IMG/VR virus record: IMGVR_UViG_2703718845_000001
Direction: 5' to 3' (one strand)
DNA from: a virus
Lineage: Duplodnaviria > Heunggongvirae > Uroviricota > Caudoviricetes
Length of the DNA: 11,077 nucleotides
Below are positions 3,278 to 3,513 of the stretch, one piece after another; the stretch's first letter is position 1; the number at the start of each line of letters is the position of its first letter. The translations under genes and the position numbers were made by a program. Under the pieces are notes generated by a model. That model saw only the letters and a program-made list of their open reading frames with translations, was not told the DNA's origin and did no database searches.

Positions 3278-3469
3278 TCAGCCTTTAGGTTCAATGCCGC
3301 GTCGCTTTAGTTCGGCACGAGCTAATTCTTTAAACCAATTGCCGAGGGTTAGGCCATCGGCGGTTGCTGCCTCGTTTACTTGCTGGCGTAGTTCTTTGCT
3401 AATTCGTATCTGGAATGTCGGCGACCATCCCTCGCCGCGTGGTGATTTATCCCGCTTTAATGTTGACAT
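3278..3469 (-). CDS. Ribbon-helix-helix (Arc/MetJ/CopG-like) DNA-binding protein, putative repressor
   Basis: 63 aa; beta-strand-like PTFQIRISKEL followed by two short helices (RQQVNEAATADGLT, LGNWFKELARAELKR) as in Arc-type RHH repressors; divergent from the promoter/operator at 3463-3513; AGGAG upstream of the ATG on the minus strand. Confidence 0.65.
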   Translation of the reverse strand: MSTLKRDKSPRGEGWSPTFQIRISKELRQQVNEAATADGLTLGNWFKELARAELKRRGIEPKG

Positions 3470-3513
3470 GTACGTACGTAACTCCTATTATCATCAATAT
3501 TACGTACGTACAT
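3463..3513 (+). promoter_or_regulatory. Near-consensus sigma70 promoter (TTGACA-17 bp-TATTAT) embedded in a pair of perfect 14-bp inverted-repeat operators
   Basis: TTGACA 3463-3468, TATTAT 3486-3491; atgtacgtacgtaa (3468-3481) and ttacgtacgtacat (3500-3513) are exact reverse complements, and each contains the self-complementary tacgtacgta. Confidence 0.6.

What the first reader, a model, noticed from the sequence alone, without database searches (positions are those of the whole stretch)
3278..3513. RHH repressor gene abutting a near-consensus promoter framed by perfect twin 14-bp operators
TTGACA (3463-3468), a 17-bp spacer and TATTAT (3486-3491) form a strong rightward promoter toward the icd-like and pri-rep operon. 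Exact inverted copies atgtacgtacgtaa / ttacgtacgtacat overlap the spacer and the +1 region, and each is internally palindromic (tacgtacgta). The divergent RHH gene begins inside the -35 element. This looks like a tight genetic switch controlling satellite replication, with the RHH protein as the likely master repressor and possible target of helper-encoded inducers.
Basis: partly seen in the sequence, partly recalled or inferred. Interest (0 to 1): 0.6.

Follow-up and report, generated by a model that had tools for sequence, protein, structure and literature searches.

The report
Arc-like repressor switch in a phage satellite
A tiny, usually unannotated gene in a phage-parasitising island of E. 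coli encodes an Arc-like DNA-binding protein that very probably shuts off the island's replication genes by sitting on two matching sites around their promoter, which supplies a candidate for the repressor that Gram-negative satellites of this type were thought to lack.

Summary
TTGACA-17-TATTAT (3463-3491) is flanked by a perfect 14-nt inverted repeat (3468-3481 / 3500-3513), and the 63-aa gene (3278-3469, minus strand) starts inside the -35.

The window is a complete ~10.9-kb PICI-type satellite with int, alpA-like, icd-like, primase and capsid genes.

The protein is an Arc-like ribbon-helix-helix. Arc is the best hit by both sequence profile and fold.

In 80+ related loci from Enterobacterales and one Pasteurella element, the same layout recurs with eight different operator cores. 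Both copies change together. The three protein positions that best predict the core are the beta-strand residues equivalent to Arc Q9/N11/L12. This is strong indirect evidence that the protein reads these sites and blocks the rightward promoter.

Not shown are repression itself, "master" status, or any helper-encoded inducer. Published work makes AlpA the required activator.

It also missed a structured ~80-nt RNA antisense to the icd leader and ribosome-binding site. This is a second control layer and probably the route by which the repressor gene is transcribed.

It is a new member of a known kind; the closest analogue is P22 immI.

The parts
3278..3469 (-). 63-aa Arc-like ribbon-helix-helix protein, the putative repressor. 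The beta strand is residues 17-23 (PTFQIRI). Helices are 25-37 and 42-56. The C-terminal tail RGIEPKG is conserved.
   Evidence: ORF. PDB profile search: best hit P22 Arc, E 0.11, nearly full length. AF2 model pLDDT 72.5. Foldseek top hits are all Arc, TM 0.85, rmsd 1.4 A. PHROG Arc-like repressor, E 1.8e-4. Below the curated cut-offs of Pfam HicB and NCBIfam YlcI/YnfO.
3463..3468 (+). -35 hexamer TTGACA of the rightward promoter P_R. It is encoded on the opposite strand by codons 1-3 (Met-Ser-Thr) of the RHH gene.
   Evidence: Exact TTGACA in 78/83 loci. Ser2 is TCA in 76/77 genes.
3486..3491 (+). -10 hexamer TATTAT of P_R with a 17-nt spacer. The start site is inferred at about 3497-3499.
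   Evidence: TAnnnT at 16-19 nt in 69/83 loci. Information peaks at the A2 and T6 positions of the hexamer. The start site itself is inferred, not mapped.
3468..3481 (.). Operator O1, ATGTACGTACGTAA (core GTACGTAC 3470-3477), inside the P_R spacer.
   Evidence: I1. Conserved position and class-specific core in related loci.
3500..3513 (.). Operator O2, TTACGTACGTACAT (core GTACGTAC 3504-3511), covering about +2 to +15 of P_R. It lies 34 bp from O1, core to core.
   Evidence: I1. Spacing is 33-35 bp in nearly all loci. O2 always carries the same core as O1.
3482..3486 (-). Shine-Dalgarno AGGAG for the RHH gene, 12 nt from the ATG. In most other classes the AGGT half of O1 plays this role at 6-8 nt.
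   Evidence: Read from the sequence. Inference.
3527..3573 (-). Hairpin 1 (3573->3537) plus a U-run (3536->3527) on the minus strand. In this window it is an intrinsic terminator for a leftward transcript.
   Evidence: Terminator scan: 15 pairs. The minus strand is more stable than the plus strand in 62/63 unique loci, -21.5 vs -15.0 kcal/mol. There are 138 G.U pairs on the minus strand and 14 on the plus strand.
3573..3603 (.). Conserved CTAACC (3573-3578), hairpin 2 (CGATA 3584-3588 / TATCG 3596-3600) and the icd SD GAGG (3600-3603). This is the part of the P_R leader covered by the antisense RNA.
   Evidence: Compensatory changes in 9 of 10 predicted pairs. Folds.
3616..3624 (-). Leftward extended -10, TGGTATGAT (putative P_L), inside codons 3-5 of icd. 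The predicted start is about 3609 and the predicted RNA runs 3609->~3527.
   Evidence: A TAnnnT ends at +7 or +13 from the first-gene ATG in 62/64 unique loci. It is built on the wobble T of codons for variable amino acids. The 85-nt RNA folds at -40.1 kcal/mol, z -6.7. Across loci the median z is -3.7 on the minus strand and -2.6 on the plus strand. Not mapped experimentally.
3609..3812 (+). icd-like gene, the first gene of the P_R operon. It is followed by ORFs 3805-4125, DUF4222 (4132-4431) and the primase (4413-6245).
   Evidence: NCBIfam NF033153, E 1e-18. Pfam D5_N/Pox_D5/DUF5906 for the primase.
3149..3274 (-). 41-aa ORF directly downstream of the RHH gene. Its 3' end equals the 3' end of the CFT073 YlcI/YnfO gene, so it is a probable recombination scar. 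It is not conserved in relatives.
   Evidence: Downstream genes vary or are absent in the 80 loci.
2828..2847 (-). Minus-strand terminator just after the alpA-like gene. It is the probable end of the leftward transcription unit.
   Evidence: Inference.

Best explanation
This is the immunity/switch module of a Gram-negative PICI-type phage satellite.

The repressor. The 63-aa gene encodes an Arc-like ribbon-helix-helix dimer. Its beta-strand side chains T18 and Q20, with invariant R22, read the core GTACGTAC of two identical operators. O1 fills the spacer of the near-consensus sigma-70 promoter P_R. O2 covers +2 to +15. Occupancy of these sites keeps RNA polymerase off P_R. That silences the icd-like/DUF4222/primase operon, and so silences satellite replication.

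Shared DNA. The repressor's own coding and translation signals are interwoven with the promoter. Codons 1-3 are the -35. The SD lies in the spacer.

The second layer. A leftward promoter inside the first codons of icd (-10 at 3621->3616) makes a highly structured RNA. This RNA is antisense to the icd ribosome-binding site and leader. In this window it mostly ends at the hairpin/U-run at 3573->3527. In lineages without the U-run the same transcript should continue across O2 and O1 into the repressor gene. P_R and this promoter are then face to face and mutually interfering, which would make the module bistable.

Status of each step.
- Shown: the anatomy, the fold class, conservation, operator/residue co-variation, and the strand asymmetry of the RNA structure.
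- Inferred: binding, repression, both transcription start sites, transcriptional interference, and the link to AlpA and the helper phage.
For: Fold:
- Arc is the best PDB hit by profile search and aligns P17-T18-F19-Q20-I21-R22 with Arc P8-Q9-F10-N11-L12-R13.
- Foldseek top hits are Arc, PutA, AmrZ and CopG.
- The best PHROG is 'Arc-like repressor'.

Architecture:
- It is conserved in 80 loci of Enterobacterales, in the O157:H7 cf-PICI and in Pasteurella element Pmp8.

Specificity classes:
- TFQIR with GTACGTAC
- PFHMR with GTGyACAC
- QFRMR with GTGGTCAC
- QFKMR with GrGGCCAC
- MFNVR with GTATAGAC
- IFSVR with GTATGGAC
- AFQIR with GTGTGTAC
- QYQMR with GGTAwwTACC
- O1 and O2 always carry the same core.

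Mutual information:
- Of all alignment columns, residues 20, 18 and 21 carry the most information about operator class: 1.68, 1.53 and 1.16 of 1.78 bits.
- They are invariant within a class, while other columns vary within a class.

Promoter:
- Conserved TTGACA and TAnnnT, with selection on the Ser2 wobble base.
- Information content peaks on the -35, O1, the -10 A/T positions and O2, and collapses between them.

Antisense layer.

Context:
- The RHH/operator cassette is swapped as a unit. The homology shared with more than 1300 E. coli genomes begins at about 3527-3542, exactly at the end of the predicted antisense RNA.
Against: - There is no experimental datum on binding, repression or start sites.
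- The operators lie within 45 bp of the gene, so some association with protein residues is expected from linkage alone. The within-class invariance argument reduces this confound but does not remove it.
- Sequence-level similarity to Arc is marginal (E 0.11), and the curated Pfam/NCBIfam cut-offs are not reached.
- No sigma-70 match of 9/12 or better for the repressor gene lies between 3487 and 3537. The candidate leftward promoter lies behind a strong terminator in this window, so how the repressor is expressed here is unresolved.
- AlpA over-expression alone induces EcCICFT073 (PMC6092414). EcCICFT073 carries a related module at the same place. The RHH block must therefore be bypassable.
- MAFFT/RNAalifold did not recover hairpin 1 as a consensus on the minus strand, because the stem has two length classes.
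Confidence: 0.75

Rival explanations
1. The RHH protein binds these sites but is not the maintenance ('lysogeny-type') repressor. Instead it is a homeostatic regulator that trims expression of the replication operon after induction. P22 Arc turns down Pant in this way, and pMV158 CopG with RNAII sets copy number in this way. Under this reading AlpA and the helper phage make the on/off decision.
For: AlpA is required for induction of EcCICFT073 and of EcCIEDL933, and its over-expression alone is sufficient in EcCICFT073. An RHH plus an antisense RNA on the leader of a replication gene is the classic copy-control pair (own knowledge of pMV158). The terminator upstream of the repressor gene in this window suggests low, regulated synthesis.
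Against: The gene is divergent from the operon it would control, not inside it. Its synthesis is therefore not coupled to operon activity as it is for Arc or CopG. The promoter is near-consensus and would be constitutively strong in an integrated island without a standing repressor. The existence of many specificity classes is typical of immunity repressors.
Confidence: 0.2
2. The small protein is the antitoxin of a toxin-antitoxin pair, as many homologues are annotated ('HicB family antitoxin'). The palindromes would then be its autoregulatory operator and would have nothing to do with the icd operon.
For: Weak Pfam HicB match (E 0.004). Homologues are named HicB antitoxin in NCBI. A 41-aa ORF lies immediately downstream.
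Against: The score is below the curated cut-off (17.6 < 21). There is no HicA or any other conserved partner: the downstream gene is absent or different in the 80 loci. The 41-aa ORF has no family hit and looks like a recombination scar. What is conserved next to the gene is P_R, the leader and the icd-type operon.
Confidence: 0.04
3. The inverted repeat acts as a nucleic-acid hairpin or cruciform rather than as protein-binding sites. It could be a terminator or attenuator in read-through RNA from alpA, or a DNA structure at an origin.
For: The arms are perfectly complementary, and both arms co-vary between loci, as stems do.
Against: In several classes the two copies are direct repeats, not inverted ones (GTGGTCAC and GrGGCCAC classes; L050 has one copy flipped). 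Only one arm would be present in either the P_R transcript or a short leftward transcript. There is no U-run. The -10 sits in the 18-nt 'loop'. The cores co-vary with beta-strand residues. The probable origin iterons lie elsewhere, at 6248-6436.
Confidence: 0.03
4. The sites are operators, but for another protein: AlpA, the Icd-like protein (its PHROG families are labelled 'transcriptional repressor'), a host factor, or a helper-phage repressor.
For: The Icd-like protein hits PHROGs annotated as transcriptional repressor. AlpA is the known regulator.
Against: The icd/leader block is shared by elements with quite different operators. The repeats associated with alpA (AGCTGGCTAkT, 2445-2521) are unrelated and are absent near P_R. 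The best predictors of operator class are the DNA-reading positions of the RHH.
Confidence: 0.04

Closest known systems
Bacteriophage P22 immI region (Mnt and Arc ribbon-helix-helix repressors, Pant/Pmnt, sar antisense RNA controlling ant)
   Same: The repressor is a small Arc-type RHH; Arc is the best sequence and fold match. The operator overlaps a strong promoter. The repressor gene is divergent from the controlled operon, as mnt is. A short structured antisense RNA covers the ribosome-binding site of the controlled gene. The components of immI are as summarised in PMC2629481.
   Different: There are two separated operators 34 bp apart flanking the -10, rather than one 17-21-bp operator. 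The repressor start codon lies inside the -35. The controlled genes are icd-like plus replication genes of a satellite, not an antirepressor. There is no second in-operon repressor. Membership of the Arc/Mnt sequence family is not established (E 0.11).
Stl/Rpr master repressors of SaPIs and Gram-positive PICIs
   Same: The position is the same: a small regulator transcribed divergently from the excision/replication operon of a PICI, between int and pri-rep (PMC6092414).
   Different: Stl proteins are larger HTH repressors whose derepression by helper proteins has been demonstrated. Here the fold is RHH and no inducer is known. AlpA, which is absent from SaPIs, is required for induction. The 2018 paper states that a global repressor in Gram-negative PICIs is unclear.
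P2 / 186 developmental switch (C or CI repressor, face-to-face lytic and lysogenic promoters)
   Same: The strong 'lytic' promoter and the weak repressor promoter converge, so that their transcripts overlap. In P2 the repressor half-sites flank the -10 of the early promoter. This comparison rests on my own knowledge and was not checked in a paper here.
   Different: The repressor fold differs. The overlap here (about 110 nt) contains a conserved structured RNA and, in this window, a terminator. Face-to-face transcription is inferred, not mapped.
pMV158 CopG (RHH) plus antisense RNAII control of repB
   Same: An RHH repressor at the promoter is combined with a counter-transcribed RNA over the leader/RBS of a replication operon. 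CopG is among the fold hits. There are weak, sub-threshold Rfam hits to ctRNA families on the minus strand.
   Different: copG is the first gene of the operon it represses, whereas here the gene is divergent. There is no sequence relationship of the RNAs. The Rfam scores are far below gathering thresholds.
P1 immI (c4 RNA-icd-ant) and P4 CI RNA immunity
   Same: An icd-type first gene is under RNA-based control in a temperate element or satellite. C4/isrK-type RNAs are reported in some Gram-negative PICIs (PMC10111431).
   Different: There is no C4, isrK or other Rfam match in this window, even with permissive settings. The RNA here is cis-antisense, not a processed trans-acting RNA from the same strand.

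Membership tests
Ribbon-helix-helix (Arc/MetJ/CopG) superfamily | beta-alpha-alpha fold of about 45 residues | tested here: met
   The AF2 model shows an extended segment at 17-24 followed by helices 25-37 and 42-56. The top 50 Foldseek PDB hits are almost all RHH proteins, led by Arc with TM 0.85 and rmsd 1.4 A. The E-values are weak because the domain is small.
Ribbon-helix-helix (Arc/MetJ/CopG) superfamily | N-terminal beta-strand whose alternate side chains read the bases | tested here: met
   This is indirect evidence. Residues 18 and 20 (equivalent to Arc Q9 and N11) are the best predictors of operator core among all columns, and R22 (equivalent to Arc R13) is invariant.
Ribbon-helix-helix (Arc/MetJ/CopG) superfamily | G-x-S/T/N turn between helix A and helix B | tested here: met
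   D-G39-L-T41-L in the window protein aligns with Arc N-G-R/M-S-V. The pattern G-x-[ST]-L is conserved in the family alignment.
Ribbon-helix-helix (Arc/MetJ/CopG) superfamily | Obligate dimer formed by pairing of the two beta strands | not testable with these tools
   Only single-chain prediction is available.
Pfam HicB (PF05534) / NCBIfam YlcI_YnfO_N (NF041551) | Score at or above the curated cut-off | tested here: not met
   HicB 17.6 bits against 21. YlcI_YnfO_N 20.3 bits against 30.
Type II toxin-antitoxin antitoxin | Conserved adjacent toxin gene in the same operon | tested here: not met
   The downstream gene is absent or unrelated across the 80 loci. There is no toxin family hit in the window neighbours.
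Gram-negative PICI / cf-PICI satellite (context) | An island of about 10-17 kb with int, alpA, pri-rep, att sites, and packaging or capsid genes borrowed from lambdoid phages | tested here: met
   Integrase 319-1740, HTH_17/excisionase-type gene 2583-2801, and D5_N/P4-type primase 4413-6245. DUF1441 small terminase 9316-9888. Capsid-region DNA similar to lambdoid phages. Att repeats 1-138 / 10916-11053. The same regulatory module is present in EcCICFT073-type and O157 cf-PICI loci.
Gram-negative PICI / cf-PICI satellite (context) | Induction and mobilisation by a helper phage | not testable with these tools
   Experimental property.
PICI master repressor (Stl/Rpr-like role) | Encoded divergently from the replication operon and bound to the intergenic promoter region | tested here: inconclusive
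   The divergent position is met. Binding is inferred from co-variation only.
PICI master repressor (Stl/Rpr-like role) | Relieved by a specific helper-phage protein | not tested
   No data. The literature points to AlpA activation instead.
Sigma-70 promoter | -35/-10 hexamers with 16-19 nt spacing, conserved in relatives | tested here: met
   11/12 match. 78/83 and 69/83 conservation. Wobble-base selection on the -35. The start site is not mapped.
Rfam C4 / isrK immunity RNAs | Covariance-model match | tested here: not met
   No hit at E of 1 or less in the window, or at E of 10 or less in 3440-3660.

The most novel reading that the evidence does not exclude
Gram-negative PICIs and capsid-forming PICIs are currently described as lacking a repressor and as being governed by the activator AlpA. 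They may in fact carry an overlooked, cassette-like immunity module with two parts.

- The first part is an Arc-like RHH repressor with at least eight heteroimmune specificities, set essentially by two beta-strand residues.
- The second part is a cis-antisense RNA on the leader of the replication operon, arranged as face-to-face promoters.

Under this reading the module is the functional counterpart of Stl. AlpA or the helper phage would act by overriding it, for example through read-through transcription from alpA running antisense to the repressor gene.
Probability: 0.35. Interest if true: 0.75.

Novelty: new member of a known kind. Interest (0 to 1): 0.62.

Why it matters
[quoted passage not shown] It also calls the difference from the Gram-positive Stl strategy a mystery (PMC6092414).

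This gene is annotated as 'hypothetical' or 'HicB antitoxin'. In some records it is not annotated at all: the O157:H7 cf-PICI record carries a shadow ORF on the other strand. It is a concrete, testable candidate for the missing repressor.

The natural series of eight residue/operator pairs is a ready-made recognition code for an RHH protein, which would be useful for engineering orthogonal repressors.

The module also marks immunity types of satellites. That matters for predicting which islands can coexist or be co-induced, and for PICI-based delivery tools.

Tried and rejected
- Rfam scans. I scanned the whole window and then 3440-3660 permissively. There was no C4, isrK or other credible family, only chance hairpin hits.
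- A leftward sigma-70 promoter for the RHH gene between O1 and hairpin 1. None reached 9/12. My hand-built candidates (TAATAT 3502->3497; TTAATG-17-GATAAT) have poor -35 elements or would leave out the SD, and they are not conserved.
- A third operator downstream of O2. It is clear only in a few loci (L037-L039). In the window the best candidate is a 6/8 match at 3519-3526, and it is not a family feature.
- The conserved TTAACA/TATCAC motif after O2 as a promoter element. The spacings do not fit on either strand, so it is left unexplained.
- RNAalifold on MAFFT alignments of the leader. On the plus strand it gave 9/10 pairs with compensatory changes. On the minus strand it lost hairpin 1, because two stem-length classes are misaligned. 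I replaced it with per-sequence folding of both strands.
- The toxin-antitoxin reading. Rejected because there is no conserved partner.
- The 334-aa + strand ORF 2808-3812, which runs antisense through the RHH gene and in frame into icd. Rejected as a shadow ORF because it is interrupted in 42 of 80 loci.
- Nine literature searches of the held library. One of these looked for P22 immI as the comparator system, and the P22-like phage paper it returned was read for its summary of immI. The searches aimed at PICIs found no description of an RHH repressor, of these operators or of this antisense RNA. Subscription-only papers are not covered.
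Full report
**1. The observation**

- TTGACA lies at 3463-3468, followed by a 17-nt spacer and TATTAT at 3486-3491. The consensus scan scores this 11/12. It is the only + strand promoter-like site in 2400-4500.
- ATGTACGTACGTAA (3468-3481) and TTACGTACGTACAT (3500-3513) are perfectly complementary and 18 nt apart (I1).
- Each arm contains the self-complementary TACGTACGTA (D2).
- The ORF 3278-3469 on the minus strand (63 aa) starts with an ATG whose complement overlaps the -35.

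Within the window the repeat is the longest inverted repeat with a gap of 40 nt or less. One of 40 dinucleotide shuffles reached the same length. GTACGTAC occurs only at these two places. Alone this is modest evidence. The comparative data below make chance untenable.

**2. Context**

The window is a complete island of about 10.9 kb bounded by 138-nt direct repeats (1-138 / 10916-11053), next to a tRNA(CAU) gene. It contains:
- a tyrosine integrase (319-1740);
- an HTH_17/excisionase-type AlpA-like gene (2583-2801);
- the small minus-strand gene;
- an Icd-like gene (3609-3812; NF033153, E 1e-18);
- a DUF4222 gene;
- a D5_N/P4-type primase (4413-6245);
- iterons after the primase (6248-6436);
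- a ClpP-like/major-capsid fusion ORF (7233-9146);
- a DUF1441 small terminase (9316-9888).

Capsid-region DNA resembles lambdoid phages. This is the organisation of Gram-negative PICIs.

The same regulatory region, at 98-100% identity, sits in E. coli A36 and 06-00048 joined to different replication and packaging modules. The stretch from about 3527 rightwards (leader plus icd) is shared by more than 1300 of 5426 complete E. coli genomes, including CFT073. The RHH/operator part is found in 155 genomes. The repressor/operator unit therefore behaves as an exchangeable cassette.

**3. The protein**

Curated family models are only grazed: Pfam HicB reaches 17.6 bits against a cut-off of 21, and NCBIfam YlcI/YnfO reaches 20.3 against 30.

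Several lines point to an Arc-type RHH.
- A profile of 18 homologues finds P22 Arc as the best PDB sequence (E 0.11). The match is nearly end to end and aligns P17-T-F-Q-I-R22 with Arc P8-Q-F-N-L-R13.
- The AF2 model (pLDDT 72.5) has an extended N-terminal segment and two helices.
- Its best Foldseek matches are Arc structures (TM 0.85, rmsd 1.4 A). Next come PutA, AmrZ, CopG and RHH antitoxins.
- The best PHROG is 'Arc-like repressor'.

The family is small. Only 80 cluster representatives out of 1.84 billion match at E of 1e-3 or better.

The gene is real. It is open in all 80 related loci, whereas the long + strand ORF that runs antisense through it (2808-3812 in the window) is interrupted in 42 of 80. 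RefSeq nevertheless annotates that shadow ORF in the O157:H7 cf-PICI and in strain tcmA_3.

**4. Comparative anatomy of the promoter/operator region**

A scan of one genome per species returned 80 loci with homologues at 48-76% identity, nearly all from Enterobacterales. Oriented like the window, nearly all read: TTGACAT, operator, a -10-like hexamer, operator, a TTAACA/TATCAC motif, and a GC-rich hairpin.
- TTGACA is exact in 78 of 83 loci. A TAnnnT lies 16-19 nt away in 69 of 83.
- The wobble base of Ser2 is A (codon TCA) in 76 of 77 unique genes. TCA makes up 27% of the other Ser codons of the same genes. Codon 3 always starts with A. The -35 is therefore maintained at the DNA level, not as a by-product of the protein sequence.
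- In 33 unique sequences of the window's class, information content is maximal on the -35, O1, the A and T of the -10, and O2. It collapses between them.

**5. Operators co-vary with the DNA-reading residues**

The two operator copies always carry the same core within a locus, 33-35 bp apart, but the core differs between lineages. Each core goes with one beta-strand motif:

| Operator core | Beta-strand motif | Loci |
|---|---|---|
| GTACGTAC | TFQIR | 53, including the window |
| GTGTACAC / GTGCACAC | PFHMR | 5 |
| GTGGTCAC | QFRMR | 6 |
| GrGGCCAC | QFKMR | 14 |
| GTATAGAC | MFNVR | 3 |
| GTATGGAC | IFSVR | 1 |
| GTGTGTAC | AFQIR | 1 |
| GGTAwwTACC (O1 GGTATATACC, O2 TGGTAATTACCA) | QYQMR | Pasteurella element Pmp8 |

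Among 69 unique proteins, the three columns with the highest mutual information with operator class (1.78 bits available) are residues 20 (1.68), 18 (1.53) and 21 (1.16). These are the equivalents of Arc N11, Q9 and L12. They never vary within a class, while other columns show up to nine residue types within the largest class. R22 (Arc R13) is invariant. Linkage alone would spread the association over many columns. Its concentration on the base-contacting positions is what binding predicts.

The orientation of the two copies is inverted in some classes and direct in others, and one locus has one copy flipped. This fits a two-fold symmetric protein on pseudo-palindromic sites and argues against a required hairpin.

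Decayed elements are informative.
- Four loci have recombined O1 with O2 and lost the -10.
- One locus is a hybrid with O1 of another class.
- Three loci have lost O1.

EcCICFT073 has, at the same place, a more distant YlcI/YnfO-type gene. Its promoter, TTGACG-18-TATAGT, is flanked by two GTGGGCCACACCT copies.

**6. How it most likely works**

Two operators bracket the -10 of a near-consensus promoter. One lies in the spacer and one covers +2 to +15. A protein bound there excludes RNA polymerase. The controlled operon is icd-like, DUF4222 and primase, that is, the replication module. Binding and repression are inferred. I give about 0.75 to the statement that this RHH binds O1/O2 and represses P_R.

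**7.

No acceptable promoter for the RHH gene lies next to it. Its SD (AGGAG, complement of 3482-3486) is inside the P_R spacer. Three observations point to leftward transcription that starts beyond the leader.

(a) Strand asymmetry of the hairpin.
- The hairpin at 3537-3573 is more stable on the minus strand in 62 of 63 unique loci (-21.5 against -15.0 kcal/mol).
- It has 138 G.U pairs on the minus strand against 14 on the plus strand. Only an RNA read from the minus strand explains that asymmetry.

(b) A conserved leftward -10.
- A minus-strand TAnnnT, often with a TGn extension (window: TGGTATGAT, 3624->3616), ends at +7 or +13 from the first-gene ATG in 62 of 64 unique loci.
- It is built from the wobble T of codons for different amino acids: TCT, CAT, TAT, TGT, AGT and TTT.
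- In Pmp8 it is a perfect TATAAT at +13.

(c) The predicted RNA.
- The RNA from 3610 to 3526 folds at -40.1 kcal/mol (z -6.7).
- It forms a 5' stem in which the anti-SD pairs with the conserved GGUGGUUAG, followed by a 15-bp terminator hairpin and a U-run.
- Across 66 unique loci the median z is -3.7 on this strand against -2.6 on the other.

The U-run is present in the E. coli, Morganella and Xenorhabdus types but absent in the Pectobacterium and Klebsiella types. In the latter the transcript should continue into the repressor gene.

My reading, at about 0.55, is as follows. The leftward promoter and P_R are face to face. The leftward RNA masks the icd ribosome-binding site and, where it is not terminated, is the repressor mRNA. 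In this window most leftward transcripts stop at the terminator.

No Rfam family matches the RNA.

**8. Relation to what is known**

The closest analogue in mechanism and fold is P22 immI, which combines RHH repressors Mnt and Arc on Pant with the sar antisense RNA (PMC2629481).
- By position the gene corresponds to Stl/Rpr of Gram-positive PICIs.
- The face-to-face arrangement recalls P2/186.
- The pairing of an RHH with a counter-transcript recalls pMV158 CopG/RNAII. These last two comparisons rest on my own knowledge.

The PICI literature available here does not describe this protein.
- Fillol-Salom et al. 2018 state that a global repressor in Gram-negative PICIs is unclear. They show that AlpA is an activator required for induction of EcCICFT073 and sufficient when over-expressed.
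- The cf-PICI preprint reports the same AlpA requirement for EcCIEDL933 and has no mention of a repressor.
- The HE-PICI paper lists Bro-type proteins and C4/isrK RNAs in this zone.
- A 2026 survey lists 'HicB' and 'YlcI/YnfO' genes among accessory genes in its table of satellites.

'Master repressor' is therefore not established. The block must be bypassable by AlpA. One possible route is read-through from alpA, since no + strand terminator was found between 2801 and P_R. Nothing speaks to helper-encoded inducers. The invariant C-terminal tail RGIEPKG lies outside the fold and is conserved from E. coli to Pasteurella. It is the obvious place to look.

**9. Verdict**

It is untested in its extension (master status, inducer target). 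It is incomplete, because it omits the antisense RNA and the leftward promoter.

It is a new member of a known kind of switch, but it fills an acknowledged gap in PICI biology and offers a natural recognition-code series. Interest is 0.62.

Noticed in passing
window 3526-3624 (minus strand): There is a conserved leftward -10 inside the first codons of icd. There is also a highly structured ~80-nt RNA antisense to the icd leader and RBS, ending at a terminator. Neither is in Rfam. Both are conserved, with the same geometry, from E. coli to Pasteurella.
   Followed up: partly
window 3514-3519 and the same position in related loci: A conserved TTAACA / TATCAC motif lies immediately after O2, with information peaks comparable to those of the operators. 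It fits no promoter spacing on either strand. A third operator copy follows it only in a few loci.
   Followed up: partly
window 1-138 and 10916-11053; 11011-11077: 138-nt direct repeats (95% identical) bound the island. The right copy overlaps a tRNA gene with anticodon CAU on the minus strand. The window therefore holds a whole ~10.9-kb satellite with both att sites.
   Followed up: no
window 6621-6714 and 9156-9249: A 94-nt direct repeat (93% identical) brackets the 637-aa ClpP-like protease/major-capsid fusion ORF (7233-9146). These stretches resemble DNA next to the terminase genes of lambdoid phages (cdtI, mEp460, Tritos).
   Followed up: no
window 6248-6436: Iterons CACTGTTCACC (four or more copies) and two 29-nt palindromic repeats lie directly after the primase gene. 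This is the probable replication origin.
   Followed up: no
window 2445-2521: Three AGCTGGCTAkT repeats, with partial inverted copies, lie just upstream of the alpA-like gene and nowhere near P_R. They are candidate AlpA autoregulation sites or integrase arm sites.
   Followed up: partly
window 3140-3274; L004 2180-2240: The 41-aa ORF downstream of the RHH gene shares its 3' end (…EIKRRQRRKAKEQE) and the adjacent DNA with the CFT073 YlcI/YnfO-type gene. This looks like the scar of a repressor-cassette exchange.
   Followed up: partly
window 2808-3812 (+); L003 2054-2797; L088 1515-2435: A long shadow ORF runs antisense through the RHH gene and, in the window, in frame into icd. RefSeq annotates such ORFs as 'hypothetical protein' in the O157:H7 cf-PICI and as a 306-aa 'Icd-like protein' in strain tcmA_3. 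There the RHH gene, which in the O157:H7 element (L003) starts with TTG, is left unannotated.
   Followed up: yes
L087 (Pasteurella 'phage' Pmp8, OR544139) 4840-5200: A 15-kb element deposited as a phage carries the same module with an eighth specificity. The beta strand is QYQMR, and the operators are GGTATATACC and TGGTAATTACCA.
   Followed up: partly
L060, L069, L045, L056; L074; L043, L047, L049: These are natural variants. In four loci O1 and O2 have recombined into one site with loss of the -10. One locus has O1 of a different class from O2 and from the protein. Three loci have lost O1. They are probably decaying or recombinant elements.
   Followed up: no
RHH protein residues 57-63 (window 3278-3301): The C-terminal tail R-G-I-E-P-K-G lies outside the RHH fold yet is invariant across all specificity classes and genera. 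It suggests a conserved interaction motif, for cooperativity, proteolysis or an anti-repressor.
   Followed up: no
window 3609-3812: The Icd-like protein matches PHROG families labelled 'transcriptional repressor' (phrog_6196, E 3e-45). NCBI calls it a cell-division inhibitor. Its real role in satellites is unclear.
   Followed up: no
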